Below, one piece after another: positions 50,801 through 63,736 of a stretch of DNA of 64,000 nt (its first letter is position 1; each line of letters starts with the position of its first letter). A model generated the notes under the pieces. That model was given only the letters and a program-made list of their open reading frames with translations. It had not been told where the DNA came from and did no database searches. A program made the translations under genes and the position numbers. The stretch is from a virus. The stretch lies in the IMG/VR virus record IMGVR_UViG_3300003323_000920. One strand, written 5' to 3'.

Positions 50801-50978
50801 AAATAAATGGGCAGGATTTATAGCTGTTTATTGGGATGGTAAGCTGGCATACATAGCAGAATTAGATGAAAAATTAGATAAATACCGTGCGGCCGGTTTT
50901 GAATATTTACCAGGTCTTAGTGAGGCCAGAACAGAATTAACAATAGTTTATTATCACATTACATGGAAGAAAAAATGA
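44817..50978 (+). other. plus-strand array of about 24 small hypothetical ORFs
   Basis: Abutting co-oriented ORFs, several with Zn ribbons (47436-47711 CPKC...CKEC) or TM segments. Confidence 0.6.
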
Positions 50979-51385
50979 TTTTAGCAGTAATAGGATCTAG
51001 GACATTTAAAAATAAAAAAGTCATTTATCAGGCAATAGATGAAATACGTGAGAAGTATAATATTACAGCTATAGTATCCGGTGTTTCCAAAGATGATACC
51101 AATGACACTGGGCCTGATACATATGGGCGAGACTATGCCTTAGATAATAATTTAGAATACATTGGATTCCCTGCGGATTGGGATAATATGGATCCACCCT
51201 GCGTAATTAAGTATACAAAGTTTAACAAACCATATAATGCACTTGCAGGATTTAACCGCAATACAAATATTGCAGAAACCGGATTTTTAGGATATGCTAA
51301 ATGGGATGGTAAAAGTAAAGGAACTAAAGATACAATAGATAAAATGACAGCATTGGGTAAAGAAGTAATAATTGATCTTTATTAA
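50963..51385 (+). CDS. SLOG-superfamily (YspA/DUF2493-like) protein
   Basis: LAVIGSRTF, IVSG, GPDTYG..YA, FPADWD, AGFNRN, WDGKSKGT. Confidence 0.8.
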   Translation: MEEKMILAVIGSRTFKNKKVIYQAIDEIREKYNITAIVSGVSKDDTNDTGPDTYGRDYALDNNLEYIGFPADWDNMDPPCVIKYTKFNKPYNALAGFNRNTNIAETGFLGYAKWDGKSKGTKDTIDKMTALGKEVIIDLY

Positions 51386-51618
51386 TGGAAGAAAAGAAAT
51401 ATTATATCCGCGATATAGAAACTGGATGGCCTACTGAAGTCAGTAAAGAACAATGGGAACTTTATCAGCAACTATTGGAATGCTACCGACCCAAATTATC
51501 TGATAATTTCAAAGGTAAAGTAATAATATTCGGAACAGGTGGTGATTTAGAAGGAGGAGATAACTTTAAACAATTATTTTATAATAATGACTTTAGAACA
51601 GGTAACGATTCAATTTAA
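51385..51618 (+). CDS. small ORF containing a TerL ATPase-domain fragment
   Basis: KVIIFGTGGDLEGGDNFKQLFYN aligns with TerL IPVLVGTGGSFEKGNDAKRFFEN. Confidence 0.6.
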   Translation: MEEKKYYIRDIETGWPTEVSKEQWELYQQLLECYRPKLSDNFKGKVIIFGTGGDLEGGDNFKQLFYNNDFRTGNDSI

Positions 51619-51834: not shown

Positions 51835-52107
51835 ATGAAGTTTAGAAAAAAACCAATAATTATTGAGGCTGTTCGGTGGGATGGAACACCGCACGCATGG
51901 AATAATATTATTGATTTGGGATGTTCCCCGACACAAGATGAAACTTGCAAAGAATATGAAATTATTATCCCTACCCTGGAAGATGGTTCATCAAACCAAG
52001 TAAAGCATATCGCTTCCAAAGGGGATTATATTATCAAAGGTATAAAAGGAGAATTTTACCCCTGTAAGCCTGAAATTTTTGAAGAAACTTATGAACTTGT
52101 AATTTAA
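51835..52107 (+). CDS. conserved phage protein (RKKP.xIEA...GDYIIKG..GEFYPCKP family)
   Basis: Recognisable motif set. Confidence 0.75.
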   Translation: MKFRKKPIIIEAVRWDGTPHAWNNIIDLGCSPTQDETCKEYEIIIPTLEDGSSNQVKHIASKGDYIIKGIKGEFYPCKPEIFEETYELVI

Positions 52108-52380: not shown

Positions 52381-52548
52381 ATGTGCAACAAAGTAAAACA
52401 CAAGACTACTTACGGAGCAGCAAAACATGCAGATGCATTACGTAATAAGAAGAAATTCAAAAATAGACAGATAGGTATTTACTGGTGTTCTTCATGTGAA
52501 GATTATCATATCACCACTCATCCAGGTAAAGGATGTATAATAATATGA
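52381..52548 (+). CDS. small Zn-finger-like protein (55 aa, not in ORF track)
   Basis: MCNKVKH...IYWCSSCEDYHITT; stop overlaps the next ATG (ATGA). Confidence 0.55.
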   Translation: MCNKVKHKTTYGAAKHADALRNKKKFKNRQIGIYWCSSCEDYHITTHPGKGCIII

Positions 52549-52883
52549 ACAGAAAGAATGATTGCATTGCCTGCCGATTTAAAAGGGATGGGGTTAAAAC
52601 CAGAAGGGCTTTAGTACATACATGTGGTAAATATATAAAGGAATTGCCGCCGGTAAACCCAAATAAGGAATACTACGTAAGTTGTGATCTGTATGATAAT
52701 ACTTACGGGCCTGGGGCAATACTGGTTATGAGTAAAAGTGAAGATGGTAAAACCTTAAAGGTTGAATACTCTACAAACACCACCGTTAAGGATTTTAAAA
52801 GAGAGGTGTTAAGAATAGCTCAATATTATAATGCAGTACCAATATATGATGAAGTTACAGAGAGATCGATGAATAATAGTTAA
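52533..52883 (+). CDS. Zn-module fused to a TerL nuclease-domain fragment (likely start 52545)
   Basis: ELPPVNPNKEYYVSCDLY...GAILV...EVLRIAQYYNA aligns with TerL residues ~433-517. Confidence 0.65.
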   Translation: MYNNMNRKNDCIACRFKRDGVKTRRALVHTCGKYIKELPPVNPNKEYYVSCDLYDNTYGPGAILVMSKSEDGKTLKVEYSTNTTVKDFKREVLRIAQYYNAVPIYDEVTERSMNNS

Positions 52884-52916
52884 AAGAAAACCCCGCAATT
52901 AGCGGGGTTATTTTAT
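52883..52916. terminator. bidirectional terminator between convergent arrays
   Basis: aaaaccccgc-aatta-gcggggttatttt with A- and T-tracts on both sides. Confidence 0.85.
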
Positions 52917-55129
52917 TCTTAACATTTTACATATCCATCGAAAGTCGTTAATATCTTGACATTGACCCCGATAAACCCGATCTGCAAAATTACTATCCCA
53001 TATCTCCAAAATACTATTCGGTCTATATTCAGCCACTGTATAAGTAGCTTTATAAATCGTTCCATCATTAGCATTAAATATTCCAGAGAAGGTCCAATTT
53101 TCTCCTAGCCCTTTAATGGATTCCCTTACTTGATACCATCCCGGCTCCTTTATCAAATCGTCAATTGAAAACAGGGAAACTCTGAATTGAGCATACCCAT
53201 CATCTAATGCAATAATAGCCTCTTCTAAATCATGAAGATATGTACCATCCTCATCTTTCAATTGGATAACTTCCTTATCAAAAATTTCCACATAACCTCT
53301 AGCCCAATTAACTTCTCCTTCCCAACCTATCCTCAAATCTTCTATATCAGGGTAATAATATTTATCAACTTCCCACGTTTTCATATACTCTTTATAGTAC
53401 TCTTTGTTTACCTCAGTTTTCTTACCTGTCCGCTGATTGCAGATGTAGTATTTATTCTCCATTTTTCCATTTTAAATATGACCGAATAAAAACATACATG
53501 TTAACTCCTCTTTCATTTGTCTTTTCTACAAATGTATCAAGTAACTCCGGAGCATTATCTGATATGTCCTCATATAAGTCATGTAAGAAATAAATGTTAC
53601 GACGTACTTTAGCATTAAATGGAGAACTCCAATACTGGCTTTGATACATATAAGGCTCACCTCCATATCCTGCATCGGGTCCATAATCCAATTCATCGTA
53701 TTCTACAATCCTATACCAATTTTTATAATTGCTATTTTCATTACTAGGGTCTTCCCTTACTCCGAATGTTCTTTCTCCGAATTCTCCACACCCGGCCCAA
53801 TATTCTGTAAATCCTAGTTTATCCAGAACACCGGATGTGATAAGTAATTCTGTAAAAGGGAAAGGATATATAAGTGTTTTATTTTCCATTTAATCTCATT
53901 ATTAATTTTGAAAGATCTGCAAATTCATAATAGTCCATCCAAATACTCACTTCCACACTATCTTCCTCATTATACTTTACAAGATTTATAATGGAAGAAG
54001 TACTATGATGGAAGAAATCCCAAGTTCCCTTCTCCGATTCCGCATTTACCAAATTATGCCAGATTTCATTGTCCATTGTCGATTTCTTTAACTGTTAAAA
54101 CACTGAGAGGTAATTTTCCCATCTCAGTATGGCAAAAAATAATTGATCCTATTATTTCATCAGATAATCCTTCTTTCCTACAAGTATCTACAAATAATTT
54201 TGCCCCATCTTCTCCTGTTTGAGCAATAATATTTCTCTGACCAGGCATTGCGATTTTTTCTTCACTATCACCTATCTCATAGCAATAACCTGGAAGTATT
54301 TTATCTTTTAATTCGTCTTCGCTCATTTCTATTTATTTACAATGGGATCATCACCCTCAATACCCCATTTAGTTACTATTAAGAAACCATCTTTTACATA
54401 GTGAAGAACTATTGGATCGGGTATTTCTTTATATGCAAATACTCCGTTCAATTTATATCCTTCCATATGCATTTCAGATTTCGGAGCACAAATGAAAAAT
54501 GGTATTTTTACTCTATGTCTATTATTATAGATACTAAATTCTCGATTTACACGTTTTTCTTGTTCAACCTCTATATAACTCTCTACATGTGCGTTTTCGC
54601 TTAATGCAGCATTTGGATCTACATACCAACTACTGCTAGAAGAATATATATAATATCTATCATCATCACTCACTTTAAATGTTTCCATTTCCTTTAAGTT
54701 CTTTAAAGGTATGTCACCTTTATACATACCAGCCATACCACATATTAGTCCATACTTTTCGCATATTTGTTTTATTTGATCTAAAAATATGAATTTATAT
54801 TGGGGATATTTCTCTTTGTATTTATTAACAATATTAGCCTTCTTTTTAGCTGCATTATCTATTTCAATCCGTTTCTCCAATTCTCTTACTTGAGCAGTGT
54901 GAGTAAATCCTAATTTTTGCATCAATTGGGCCTTCTCCTTTTTGGTTTCTTCTATCCCTTTCTGACTTAAAATAAATAAAGCCTCATTGAGAGCACGATC
55001 CGCTGCACTATCAAACTCATTGTGAATCTTCTCAATCACATTAGATGTTTTTGCTTCCTGTGGAACAGTTCCGTCTGTTACGTTTTCTACAATTTTATTT
55101 TTTAGTTTTTTTAAGAAGTTAAATTTCAT
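52908..55129 (-). other. hypothetical ORFs (52908-53462, 53452-53889, 53879-54076, 54066-54326, 54329-55129)
   Basis: Co-oriented coupled ORFs; 54329-55129 has a recognisable phage family pattern (ICEKYGL...DPIVL...LIVTKWG). Confidence 0.6.
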
Positions 55130-61377: not shown

Positions 61378-61695
61378 ATGCCAAGAAAGAAAATCTATGT
61401 TGAGATGGAATTGGAGTGGGCTGAAGTACAGCTCCACAATTGGAGAGAATATATAGATGCCAATCCTATAGACCTTTTAACTGATAGAATTGAATGGGTG
61501 GATGGAAAATATGGATTAACCCCCAAAGTTATTCAATCAAAAGAAAATCAAATAAAGTCTGTTCAAGAAACCCTCGTTAAATATCTAACCCTTTTAAAAG
61601 AAGTGAATGAAATGCGTGAAGGTAGAGAAATGAGGGTAGCAGCCAAAGGAGATATAGAAATACCCCATAGAATGAAAAAGTCTGATGGAAATTAA
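61378..61695 (+). CDS. conserved protein directly upstream of TerL (possible small terminase)
   Basis: Position and helical character only. Confidence 0.35.
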   Translation: MPRKKIYVEMELEWAEVQLHNWREYIDANPIDLLTDRIEWVDGKYGLTPKVIQSKENQIKSVQETLVKYLTLLKEVNEMREGREMRVAAKGDIEIPHRMKKSDGN

Positions 61696-63736
61696 GACTA
61701 CAGAATTTTTTAAAAATTATCATCTACTGCCTAAAAGAAATACCCCAGAATTCGAGCAATTAGTTGACGAAGAAATTGAGAAATGTAAAGGTGGTGTTAC
61801 AGTCAATGGAATATACTTTTCCGGTTGGCTCTATTTTTATTTGAACCATTGGTGGATTCGTGTAGATAAAAAAGATAATTACGGAAATATTGTAAAAGAA
61901 CCCCTCCAACCATATTTAAGGGATAACGAATGGATCCGGTCAGAAGCTTTAGAACAATGTCGCCAACAGATGAAAGGCTACATGGAAATTGGTCTAAGGC
62001 AAGGTGGTAAATCTGAATTTGAGGCATCTATTACTGCTTACAATGCATTAATGTTCAAAGATACTCAAAATGTAATTGTTGGTGGTAATGATCCTGACTT
62101 AGGATTGTTAAAAGATAAAATAGATTTTGGTTTAAAAAGAGTTTGGGAAGGACTGGCAATTCCCCGGTTGGATAAAGACTGGAGGAAATCGATGGTCAAA
62201 TTGGGCTATAAACAAAAAGATAATGAAGATGAAATATGGTCCTATTTAATTATCAGAAACGCAGATGGGGGCGATAATACCGAAGCACCAGCAGGTACAA
62301 CCGCTAAATCCTTTGTAATGGATGAAGTGGGTAAATACGAATTTAGTCCTGTATTTACCGCCGCAAAACCTGCATTTATATCAGAATTTGGTTGGCGAAC
62401 TATTCCAGTATTAGTAGGAACTGGTGGTTCTTTTGAAAAGGGGAATGATGCCAAAAGGTTCTTTGAAAATCCAGAAGCTAACAACTTCTTAGCATTTGTT
62501 GATCCTGAGACTGGAGCTAAAACCTGTCTTTTTATGCCGGGGTGGTATCGGCAAGATTGTAAATATGATACAACATTAGATAGGTTTCTTATAGATGTTA
62601 GGGGAATGGAACTCAGTGATGTTTCTGAATTATCCAAGATTCCTATTAAAGTTGCCGATAAAGAAAGGGCCATTGCCAGAATAAAAGCTGATAGAGAACA
62701 AAAAGCAAAGGATCCAGATCAAACAGATTATTTAAAGGAAATAATGTATCATCCGCTTACTACTGCGGAGTGCTTTTTATCTTCGGCTACAAATTTTTAT
62801 AATGGTGAATTAGCAGCAAAGCAAAAGACCAAATTAATTGAAAATAATGTTACTGGATCCTGTGTATTTCTAAAACACGATGGTGAAAAAATAATACATG
62901 AATTTGTTCCTCATAAACGACCTATTTCTTCTCACCCAGTTAAAAAAACTGAAGATTTAGATGCCCCTATTGTGATCTGGGAAATGCCCATCTCAAATCC
63001 ACCATATGGTCTTTATGTAGCTGGAGTTGACCCATATAGACAAGATCAAGCTACTTATAGTGATTCGTTAGGGGCTGTATATATATATAAAAGAATGCAT
63101 GATATTGCTGGGGAAAAATTGCAAGATGCATTTGTTGCGGCGTATGTTGCCAGGCCAAAAGACAAAGGTAAATGGGAAGAGCAAGCCCGATTACTTATAA
63201 AATATTATAATGCGAGAGCTTTGTGTGAAAATGATGAAATAAGTTTTATTGATTACATGATCGACAAAGGAGATGAGCATTATTTAGAACCGCAGCCCGA
63301 TTGGCTTAAAACTATTGTACCTAATTCCAAAGTGGATAGAAAAAAGGGTATTCATAGGTCAAGTGAAAGTATAAGAACACACCTCAGAGGTTTATTCAAA
63401 ACCTATATGGAGGAAAAAATTCACACAGAAAAAGATGAACATGGTTCAATCATAAAGGAAACCTATGGTATTTCCCGCGTACTTGATCCAATGTTGTGTG
63501 AAGAAGTTGCTACTTGGAATATAGATGGAAACTTTGACCGTGAAGTTGCTGCATCCCTGGCAATCGCACAGGCCAGGCATATGGATCCAAGAATTGGAAA
63601 AGTTAATTCAGCCGAACAAGATCCTCGTTACAAATCCTACTTTGAAAGAAATAAAAGTAACCCCACTTCCCTTTTTAAAGAAAAGAAAAACAGTACAATA
63701 CGAAAAGGAAGTAGAATAAAAAGATTATTTAAATAG
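61685..63736 (+). CDS. terL: terminase large subunit
   Basis: Walker A GLRQGGKS, Walker B FVMDE, VGTGG, nuclease VAGVDPY, YYNA...EN, GNFDR. Confidence 0.93.
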   Translation: MEIKTTEFFKNYHLLPKRNTPEFEQLVDEEIEKCKGGVTVNGIYFSGWLYFYLNHWWIRVDKKDNYGNIVKEPLQPYLRDNEWIRSEALEQCRQQMKGYMEIGLRQGGKSEFEASITAYNALMFKDTQNVIVGGNDPDLGLLKDKIDFGLKRVWEGLAIPRLDKDWRKSMVKLGYKQKDNEDEIWSYLIIRNADGGDNTEAPAGTTAKSFVMDEVGKYEFSPVFTAAKPAFISEFGWRTIPVLVGTGGSFEKGNDAKRFFENPEANNFLAFVDPETGAKTCLFMPGWYRQDCKYDTTLDRFLIDVRGMELSDVSELSKIPIKVADKERAIARIKADREQKAKDPDQTDYLKEIMYHPLTTAECFLSSATNFYNGELAAKQKTKLIENNVTGSCVFLKHDGEKIIHEFVPHKRPISSHPVKKTEDLDAPIVIWEMPISNPPYGLYVAGVDPYRQDQATYSDSLGAVYIYKRMHDIAGEKLQDAFVAAYVARPKDKGKWEEQARLLIKYYNARALCENDEISFIDYMIDKGDEHYLEPQPDWLKTIVPNSKVDRKKGIHRSSESIRTHLRGLFKTYMEEKIHTEKDEHGSIIKETYGISRVLDPMLCEEVATWNIDGNFDREVAASLAIAQARHMDPRIGKVNSAEQDPRYKSYFERNKSNPTSLFKEKKNSTIRKGSRIKRLFK

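What the first reader, a model, noticed from the sequence alone, without database searches (positions are those of the whole stretch)
51385..51618. Mini-protein carrying the TerL ATPase GTGG coupling-motif segment
LLECYRPKLSDNFKGKVIIFGTGGDLEGGDNFKQLFYN aligns with TerL ~223-262 (VFTAAKPAFISEFGWRTIPVLVGTGGSFEKGNDAKRFFEN). Walker A and B are absent, so it cannot be an ATPase. The divergence suggests capture from another crAss lineage's terminase (inference).
Basis: partly seen in the sequence, partly recalled or inferred. Interest (0 to 1): 0.7.

Follow-up and report, generated by a model that had tools for sequence, protein, structure and literature searches.

The report
Terminase-derived mini-protein family in phages
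This 77-residue phage gene belongs to a widespread, unannotated family of small proteins whose back two-thirds is an old, enzymatically dead copy of one inner piece of the DNA-packaging motor (TerL), which may serve as a mimic of the part of TerL that bacterial immune sensors read, though this is untested.

Summary
The ORF at 51385..51618 (+) is real, and its likeness to the window's TerL (61685..63736) is homology, not chance. The single pair is only borderline: 6 of 2000 shuffles reach its Smith-Waterman score, and in-window BLASTP gives E 0.03. The family evidence is decisive. The ORF has at least 122 full-length relatives (clusters at 50% identity, median 88 aa). Their profile aligns residues 27-73 to TerL 220-268 with hhalign probability 96-97% and E 1e-9 to 1e-10; reversed and shuffled controls score 15 or less against 59. 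TerL 220-268 is the helix after Walker B, the next core strand, the GTGG motif and the following helix. No Walker A or B is detectable, so the protein cannot be an ATPase.

It is not a recent capture. There is no DNA similarity to terL. All members share a non-TerL N-terminal hairpin-helix module. No donor clade can be resolved. The gene is sporadic (absent from 10 of 10 related complete or near-complete genomes) and its identity does not track TerL identity.

Function is untested. My best guess (about 0.3) is a decoy for host sensors of the TerL ATPase core (Upx, Avs). A diverged 184-aa paralog lies at 52908..53462 (-). The scan has noted other terminase mini-copies on other DNA, but not this family.

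The parts
51385..51618 (+). Mini-protein gene, 77 aa. Member of an unannotated small-protein family.
   Evidence: ORF listing and sequence. It has 125 hits at E<1e-3 among 1.84 billion representatives; 122 of these are full-length small proteins. Alignments A1 and A3.
51385..51462 (+). N-terminal module, residues 1-26: a beta-hairpin plus the start of a helix. D10, E12 and G14 are nearly invariant. No significant TerL likeness.
   Evidence: AF2 model pLDDT 87-97 here, strands 6-9 and 16-19. Conservation counts: E12 in 121 of 123, D10 in 112, G14 in 113. hhalign against TerL gives only E 0.047 at TerL 266-281 and E 0.28 at 187-205. The N-module HMM scores 0.2 bits or less on all TerLs.
51463..51603 (+). 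TerL-homologous segment, residues 27-73: helix, orphan strand, GTGG, helix.
   Evidence: hhalign probability 96-97%, E 1e-9 to 8e-11, to TerL 220-268. In the AF2 monomer model residues 35-59 have no regular structure (block means 82 for residues 41-50 and 65 for 51-60) and there is a helix at 60-66.
51532..51543 (+). GTGG, residues 50-53, equivalent to TerL G245-G248 (C / coupling motif position).
   Evidence: Codons read. Family conservation: G50 in 117 of 123, T51 in 117, G53 in 106. TerL G245, T246, G247 and G248 are invariant in 38 TerLs.
61685..63736 (+). The phage's own large terminase (TerL), 683 aa, intact.
   Evidence: phrog_6681 E 6e-76. AF2 pLDDT 83. Foldseek to T4 gp17 E 6e-13, and also to T7, HK97 and P74-26 TerLs.
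62342..62488 (+). TerL residues 220-268, the stretch the mini-protein is homologous to: helix 220-230, strand 241-245, GTGG 245-248, helix 253-261. It lies just after the Walker B strand 207-213.
   Evidence: hhalign alignments. Secondary structure of the TerL model.
53271..53462 (-). N-terminal ~64 residues of the 184-aa ORF 52908..53462. This is a diverged paralog of the whole mini-protein domain with GTGG lost.
   Evidence: BLASTP E 3e-5 over the first 41 residues. hhalign to the family: probability 94.7%, E 6e-8, residues 1-63 to mini 3-68. Family HMM E 3.8e-6.
50963..51385 (+). Upstream gene encoding a YspA/SLOG-family protein. Its stop codon overlaps the mini-protein's start. Context only.
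   Evidence: PF10686 E 1.5e-9 and phrog_289 E 6e-18. Overlap seen.
52889..52909 (.). GC-rich hairpin with T-runs on both strands. It lies between the + strand small-gene array that holds the mini gene and the convergent - strand array.
   Evidence: Terminator-like scan. This is a consensus match only.

Best explanation
What it is (shown, about 0.9). The gene encodes one member of a conserved, horizontally mobile family of phage mini-proteins of roughly 65-110 aa. Residues 27-73 descend from the large-terminase ATPase core: the helix after Walker B, the next core beta-strand, the GTGG C-motif and the following helix. This piece is fused to an unrelated N-terminal hairpin-helix module. It has no detectable Walker A or Walker B, so it cannot hydrolyse ATP and must act by binding something.

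How it most likely works (inferred, about 0.3). It sits in a tightly packed accessory small-gene array (inference: probably early). It may display an unpaired copy of a TerL core strand, with the conserved residues around it. That copy could occupy host immune sensors that recognise the TerL ATPase core: Upx, which is predicted to bind unfolded core strands by beta-augmentation, or Avs1-3. Occupation without the full set of contacts needed for activation would blunt TerL-triggered abortive infection.
For: Homology to TerL:
- hhalign probability 96-97%, E down to 8e-11, with failed reversed and shuffled controls.
- The family HMM hits more than 40 TerLs at the same position, and also Lbo-JY46 and Crassvirales cr50_1 TerLs, E 4e-7 to 5.5e-6 per genome.
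- 15 of 40 members hit phrog_6681 and no other family recurs.
- The residues conserved in both are TerL's invariant ones: P229, G245, T246, G248, F260.

A real, selected protein:
- 122 full-length relatives at 28-50% identity, with nearly invariant positions.
- Longer members continue the TerL likeness past the helix.

An accessory, mobile gene:
- Absent from 10 of 10 related complete or near-complete genomes, where only TerL itself matches.
- No copy within 10 kb of TerL in 80 IMG/VR loci.
- Mini identity of 47-55% occurs between phages whose TerLs or other genes share only 22-28%.

Context:
- Acb2/Tad1-hairpin or Tad2-like genes lie within a few kb of family members in 4 of the 8 distinct contexts seen.

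Structure:
- The strand-equivalent stretch is unstructured in the monomer model, while the matching TerL stretch is a core strand.

Literature:
- Avs2 and Upx sense the TerL ATPase domain alone. Upx is modelled as binding disengaged core strands. One tested Upx comes from Hydrobacter penzbergensis, family Chitinophagaceae (PMC13601566).
- TerLs of this clade lie in Chitinophaga assemblies.
Against: - No binding, expression or phenotype data exist.
- Which TerL strands Upx or Avs contact could not be mapped onto residues 220-268 here.
- A 50-residue piece covers a small fraction of the large Avs2-TerL interface described in PMC13601566.
- TerL-like small proteins known so far (T4 vs.8, Ksap1/2) activate Avs2 rather than block it.
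- The N-terminal module, the best-conserved and best-modelled part, is not explained by mimicry.
- The link to anti-defence neighbours is anecdotal and was not tested against a background rate.
- The host of this phage is inferred only from relatives' TerLs in Chitinophaga assemblies.
Confidence: 0.35

Rival explanations
1. A terminase modulator or inhibitor. The fragment binds TerL itself, either the phage's own or a competitor's. It would mimic a surface or strand of the ATPase core and so delay or poison assembly of the packaging motor, as the satellite protein Gpi does to ICP1 TerL.
For: TerL-derived sequence with TerL's invariant residues kept. It cannot be an enzyme. Small TerL-binding inhibitors exist (Gpi, PMC11417361). 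Sporadic, mobile distribution fits a weapon in phage-phage competition.
Against: The copied strand lies in the middle of TerL's folded sheet, so it is not an obvious docking surface on a folded TerL. The phage would need its own TerL to be immune, yet the motif is conserved in its own TerL. There is no conserved linkage to terL.
Confidence: 0.2
2. A small independent alpha/beta domain whose present job has nothing to do with terminase. The TerL piece would only be old building material. The conserved N-terminal module (D10, E12, G14) and GTGG would form a new binding site, for a nucleotide, metal, nucleic acid or another protein.
For: The most conserved residues include the non-TerL N-module. 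The module recurs in a 184-aa paralog that has lost GTGG. Members are fused to unrelated C-terminal domains such as WDGH. Gene neighbours are varied: ThyX, RecA-like, rIIA/B and nucleotide-metabolism genes.
Against: The TerL-invariant positions are also the ones kept in the mini family, which suggests the TerL-like features still matter. The TerL-like half does not fold confidently on its own. There are no Pfam, PDB or Foldseek matches that point to another function.
Confidence: 0.25
3. A functionless relic: a left-over piece of a decayed second terL gene, or a by-product of recombination or homing.
For: TerL genes of relatives carry inteins. Homing endonuclease genes lie near some family members. 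A second small ORF (52533..52883) has a weak collinear likeness to the TerL nuclease domain.
Against: There are 122 diverse full-length relatives with a conserved start, length and motifs. There is no DNA similarity to terL. The TerL HMM finds no other TerL pieces among short ORFs. The inteins sit at Walker A, not at GTGG. The likeness of ORF 52533 is not significant (E 0.12 and 0.036).
Confidence: 0.07
4. Chance or convergent likeness of a glycine-rich strand-loop motif.
For: The single pair is weak. Similar strand-plus-GTxG motifs occur in SIS domains and in tail-fibre repeat proteins, which also appear as weak hits.
Against: Profile-profile E is 1e-9 to 8e-11 over 42-51 collinear columns that include P229, GTGG and F260, and the controls fail. 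The hits are specific to TerL across libraries.
Confidence: 0.03

Closest known systems
Large terminase ATPase domain of crAss-like phages (phrog_6681); nearest solved structure is T4 gp17 (2o0h, 3cpe)
   Same: Residues 27-73 are homologous to the helix, strand, C-motif and helix that follow Walker B, and TerL's invariant residues are kept.
   Different: Only about 50 of about 400 ATPase-domain residues are present. There is no detectable Walker A or Walker B, no arginine finger and no nuclease domain. An unrelated N-terminal module is added. It is a stand-alone gene 10 kb from terL and is absent from most relatives.
T4 vs.8 and Ksap1/Ksap2: small phage proteins resembling the TerL ATPase domain (Evans et al. 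2026, PMC13601566)
   Same: Phage-encoded, non-terminase small proteins related to or resembling the TerL ATPase. They are lineage-restricted and their own function is unknown.
   Different: According to the paper, vs.8 keeps Walker A and B and the whole ATPase fold and activates EcAvs2. The mini-protein is a sub-domain fragment without those motifs. No sequence comparison with vs.8 or Ksap was possible here.
PLE Gpi, a satellite-encoded small inhibitor that binds ICP1 TerL (Boyd and Seed 2024, PMC11417361)
   Same: A small accessory protein whose proposed target is the packaging motor.
   Different: In the paper's abstract Gpi is not described as derived from TerL. It is encoded by a satellite, not by the phage. 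No homology was tested.
Phage anti-defence decoys and sponges that sit in accessory gene arrays (e.g. Acb2/Tad1, Tad2)
   Same: Small, sporadic, mobile genes in the same kind of gene arrays. Acb2/Tad1-hairpin and Tad2-like genes lie near family members.
   Different: Those proteins bind signalling nucleotides. A protein-fragment decoy for a TerL sensor has not, to my knowledge, been described. There is no sequence or fold relation.

Membership tests
Large terminase subunit (TerL), ATPase domain | Walker A P-loop (GxxxxGK[ST]) | tested here: not met
   No such motif in the 77 residues. TerL has it at about residues 102-110.
Large terminase subunit (TerL), ATPase domain | Walker B strand ending in the catalytic D-E | tested here: not met
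   The supported alignment begins at TerL 220, after D213 and E214. Relaxed alignments skip the Walker B strand as an 11-residue gap.
Large terminase subunit (TerL), ATPase domain | C (coupling) motif at the end of the strand after Walker B | tested here: met
   GTGG 50-53 aligns to TerL G245-G248. It lies at the end of strand 241-245 in the TerL model. It is laid over gp17's TTT stretch in a non-significant PDB match.
Large terminase subunit (TerL), ATPase domain | Full-length match to the family profile and presence of the nuclease domain | tested here: not met
   Only positions 321-351 of the 758-position phrog_6681 profile are matched. The protein ends at residue 77.
Unnamed mini-protein family (alignments A1 and A3) | End-to-end similarity to other members, including the N-terminal module (Y6, D10, E12, G14, V19) | tested here: met
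   Hits cover query residues 1-69 at E down to 1.5e-15.
Unnamed mini-protein family (alignments A1 and A3) | Conserved G-T-x-G after a hydrophobic stretch, followed by an aromatic residue about 11-12 residues later | tested here: met
   G50 in 117 of 123, T51 in 117, G53 in 106, F65 in 97.
vs.8-type TerL-ATPase-like proteins (PMC13601566) | Complete ATPase fold with conserved Walker A and B | tested here: not met
   See the Walker rows above. The protein has 77 aa against 219 aa for vs.8; that length comes from earlier scan note e1-5632682 and I did not check it.
vs.8-type TerL-ATPase-like proteins (PMC13601566) | Activates Avs2 on co-expression | not testable with these tools
   Needs a co-expression toxicity assay.
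Anti-defence decoy of a TerL sensor (proposed) | Binds the sensor (Upx or Avs1-3) and lowers TerL-triggered activation | not testable with these tools
This needs co-folding and bench assays.
TerL-binding inhibitors (Gpi-like, by function) | Direct binding to TerL | not testable with these tools
   Needs pull-down or two-hybrid. The modelling attempt gave no verdict (see Tried and rejected).

The most novel reading that the evidence does not exclude
A widespread family of phage mini-proteins has been carved out of the terminase ATPase core. Each presents an orphan TerL core strand with the GTGG motif as a protein-fragment decoy. The decoy would jam host sensors that detect the (partly unfolded) terminase ATPase domain, such as Upx or Avs1-3. 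This would be the first counter-defence aimed at terminase sensing that works by mimicry of the trigger itself.
Probability: 0.27. Interest if true: 0.85.

Novelty: new variant of a known kind. Interest (0 to 1): 0.6.

Why it matters
TerL is among the most widely sensed phage proteins: Avs1-3 and Upx all recognise it. How phages escape that sensing without changing an essential motor is largely open.

Here a sub-domain piece of TerL has been kept for a long time as a separate, mobile small gene, together with TerL's invariant residues. That gives a concrete and easily tested candidate for such an escape, or alternatively for a packaging regulator.

It also defines a new, unannotated protein family of at least 122 clusters with no Pfam model and no PHROG of its own. 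It is a clear case of a fragment of a core ATPase fold being re-used as a stand-alone protein.

Tried and rejected
- Complex modelling. Co-folding of TerL (A2) with the mini-protein (A3) gave no verdict, so it says nothing for or against binding.
- Fold search. Foldseek of the mini model against PDB gave nothing at E <= 0.001; the top rows (SPP1-like small terminase, E about 1, TM 0.14-0.2) are noise.
- Library searches. The PDB profile search gave only non-significant hits: a designed protein at E 0.014 and gp17 at 0.44. The TerL profile found no PDB sequence at E <= 0.01. Pfam and PADLOC showed no recurrent family.
- Collection searches. tblastn of the mini-protein against 50,697 phage records found nothing real; the best hit was a SIS-domain isomerase at E 0.2. 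A pattern scan of IMG/VR with the family found nothing.
- Origin of the N-terminal module. Three weak placements on TerL appeared, none significant, and the module HMM scores 0.2 bits or less on all TerLs:
  - the hairpin after the copied segment, 266-281, E 0.047;
  - the hairpin before Walker B, 187-205, E 0.28 when restricted to that region;
  - the same pre-Walker-B hairpin in Lbo-JY46 TerL, -2 bits.
- Shuffle control for the restricted N-module test. It failed to parse and is not used.
- Donor clade. It is not resolvable.
- Recent duplication. There is no DNA similarity to terL.
- Intein link. The inteins of related TerLs are at Walker A.
- Two-gene module with the downstream 81-aa ORF. 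The 81-aa neighbours in the window and in L096 are unrelated.
- Decayed second terL. The TerL HMM finds no other short TerL-like ORFs. ORF 52533 against the TerL nuclease gives only E 0.12 and 0.036.
- Repeat proteins. P0076, P0106 and P0125 match residues 35-61 several times. P0125, the only one whose sequence was read, has tail-fibre-like repeats, so the match was judged convergent.
- Searches not possible. No whole genome is held for the window, and Logan contigs cannot be searched whole.

Full report
**The observation**

The ORF at 51385..51618 (+) encodes 77 residues. Its ATG overlaps the stop codon of the upstream gene (TAATG). It lies in a tightly packed + strand array of small genes running from about 48.9 to 52.9 kb, which ends at a GC-rich hairpin at 52889-52909.

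The window's TerL is the 683-aa ORF 61685..63736. It matches phrog_6681 at E 6e-76. Its AF2 model has pLDDT 83, and its best solved match is T4 gp17 at Foldseek E 6e-13.

As a single pair the likeness is only borderline:
- The Smith-Waterman score of 52 over mini 47-67 / TerL 242-262 is reached by 6 of 2000 shuffles.
- BLASTP against all 758 ORFs of the window gives E 0.03, the second-best hit.
- Composition-adjusted BLASTP misses it.
- The TerL PHROG matches mini 40-69 at E 0.015.

**The family**

A full HMMER scan of 1.84 billion representative proteins found 125 hits at E < 1e-3. Three are tail-fibre-like repeat proteins and I set them aside. The other 122 are small proteins (median 88 aa; 105 of them are 110 aa or shorter) that align with the query from residue 1 to about 69, at 28-50% identity.

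The nearly invariant positions are D10, E12 and G14 in the N-terminal part, and G50, T51 and G53 in the C-terminal part.

No Pfam family recurs among members and there is no PHROG of its own. The only recurrent library hit is the crAss-type TerL PHROG, matched by 15 of 40 members with best E 2.4e-5.

**Homology to TerL**

- hhalign of the family (40 or 123 sequences) against 38 TerLs of this clade aligns mini 27-73(77) with TerL 220-268(272). Probability is 95.7-97.0% and E is 1e-8 to 8e-11.
- Controls fail. Reversed columns score 9.4 and twenty column shuffles score at most 14.6, against 59.0 for the real alignment.
- The family HMM finds the TerL ORFs of more than 40 IMG/VR loci at the same position, E 3e-6 to 1e-3.
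- In whole-genome searches it also finds the TerLs of Leptolyngbya phage Lbo-JY46 and of Crassvirales phage cr50_1, at E 5.5e-6 and 4e-7.
- The positions conserved in the mini family are the ones invariant in TerL: P229, G245, T246, G248 and F260.
- Longer family members (P0006, P0026, P0035, P0052, P0099) continue to resemble TerL beyond the helix, into the next hairpin.

In the TerL model the copied stretch is helix 220-230, core strand 241-245, the GTGG loop and helix 253-261. It lies directly after the Walker B strand 207-213. The spacing from the Walker B glutamate (about 32 residues) fits the usual C / coupling-motif assignment, and so does a non-significant profile match that lays GTGG over gp17's TTT stretch.

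The mini-protein has no P-loop. The supported alignment starts after Walker B. It therefore cannot be an ATPase.

**The N-terminal module**

Residues 1-26 are the best-modelled part: a hairpin at 6-9 / 16-19 and then a helix from 21, with pLDDT 87-97. They show no significant likeness to TerL. Three weak candidate placements scored E 0.047, E 0.28 and -2 bits.

The same module heads a second gene in the window, the 184-aa ORF 52908..53462 (-). The first 63 residues of that protein align to the whole mini domain at hhalign 94.7%, E 6e-8, with GTGG lost. The window therefore holds two paralogs.

**Not a recent capture, and not a relic**

- There is no DNA similarity between the mini gene and terL.
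- The TerL HMM finds no other TerL pieces among short ORFs.
- The inteins found in related TerLs sit at Walker A, not at GTGG.
- The TerL-like half scores 21.7 bits on the phage's own TerL, a mean of 27-28 on TerLs of its clade, 26.3 on Lbo-JY46 and 22.8 on a Crassvirales TerL. No donor lineage can be named.

**Distribution**

The gene is sporadic. In ten related complete or near-complete genomes only TerL itself matches the family model. None of 80 TerL-centred IMG/VR loci has a copy within 10 kb.

Carriers are mostly on 90-125 kb contigs. The gene's position varies among them:
- after ThyX (L001, L002);
- 4-5 kb upstream of terL (L003, L096);
- among nucleotide-metabolism genes (L089);
- next to a RecA-like gene (L094);
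- before rIIA/rIIB-like genes (L098).

Mini identity does not follow genome relatedness:
- L003: mini 47%, TerL 24%.
- L098: mini 55%, other genes 22-28%.
- L096: mini 43%, TerL 43%.

Acb2/Tad1-hairpin or Tad2-like genes lie within a few kb of the mini gene in four of the eight distinct contexts. I did not test this against a background rate.

**Mechanism**

Shown:
- It is a TerL-derived, enzymatically dead, conserved, mobile accessory protein.
- The strand-equivalent part is unstructured in the monomer model. Residues 35-59 have no regular structure, and the block means are 82 for residues 41-50 and 65 for 51-60.

Inferred: it works by binding.

Evans et al. 2026 (PMC13601566) report the following:
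- Avs2 and Upx are activated by the TerL ATPase domain alone.
- Upx is modelled as threading disengaged core strands of that domain through its sensor by beta-augmentation.
- TerL-like small proteins (T4 vs.8, Ksap1/2) exist and their own function is unknown.
- One tested Upx comes from Hydrobacter penzbergensis, which belongs to the Chitinophagaceae.

TerLs 58-59% identical to this one lie in Chitinophaga assemblies. The copy I fetched sits beside SusC/SusD genes on a 103-kb contig assembled from a public sequencing run.

A mini-protein that offers an unpaired TerL core strand is therefore a plausible decoy for such sensors. I put this at about 0.3.

The rivals are:
- a TerL-binding modulator of the Gpi kind (PMC11417361), 0.2;
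- a re-used scaffold with an unrelated binding function, 0.25;
- a relic, 0.07;
- chance, 0.03.

The one complex-modelling job (TerL plus mini) returned no verdict and is not used as evidence.

**Comparison and novelty**

The protein is not a TerL. It fails the Walker A, Walker B, nuclease-domain and coverage tests. It is not a vs.8-type protein either, because it lacks the complete ATPase fold.

It is a new, unannotated family. It is a new variant of a kind already glimpsed: phage small proteins related to the terminase ATPase. Earlier notes of this scan describe other terminase mini-copies on other DNA. The sequence look-up found look-alikes of this ORF only in its own window.

Noticed in passing
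window 52908-53462 (-): The 184-aa ORF has an N-terminal ~63 residues that form a diverged copy of the whole mini-protein domain, with GTGG replaced. About 120 further residues have no family match. This is a second paralog, on the opposite strand.
   Followed up: partly
window 52533-52883 (+): A 116-aa ORF with a cysteine/histidine-rich N-terminus. It shows a collinear but non-significant likeness to TerL nuclease residues 431-513 (hhalign E 0.12 alone, 0.036 with its 2 relatives). Only 3 homologs were found.
   Followed up: partly
window 50963-51385 (+): A YspA/SLOG-family protein (PF10686, phrog_289) lies immediately upstream and overlaps the mini gene's start. [quoted passage not shown] Homology to ORF83 was not tested.
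   Followed up: no
window ~52012-52100, inside ORF 51835-52107 (+): An ~80-nt stretch of a PGDYG-type small gene (phrog_419) is 76-85% identical at DNA level to genes of very distant phages (Streptococcus, Acinetobacter 133, Enterococcus, Staphylococcus, Clostridium). That is unusually high nucleotide conservation across hosts.
   Followed up: no
P0187, P0235, P0175; L040 8591-11710: Several TerLs of this clade are 913-1040 aa because an intein (LAGLIDADG / Hom_end) is inserted at about residues 110-117, the Walker A region.
   Followed up: partly
L103 (103-kb contig assembled from a public sequencing run; TerL protein P0191 is named from Chitinophaga sp. YR573): A crAss-like block (TerL, portal, Crass_capsid) lies next to SusC/SusD, ECF-sigma and FecR genes, with an M4 peptidase carrying a Por secretion tail inside the block. 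It looks like an integrated crAss-like prophage or remnant, and it suggests Chitinophaga as a host for this clade.
   Followed up: no
L003 6910-7161; L094 13129-13389; L098 4742-4981; contig of P0099: Acb2/Tad1-hairpin or Tad2-like anti-defence genes lie within a few kb of mini-family genes in four separate contexts. In one member (P0099) the mini domain is fused to a WDGH domain.
   Followed up: no
P0076, P0106, P0125: Long repeat proteins match the mini-protein's residues 35-61 four to five times each. P0125, the only one read, has tail-fibre-like repeats with a strand-G-T-S-G-E motif. I judged the likeness convergent.
   Followed up: partly
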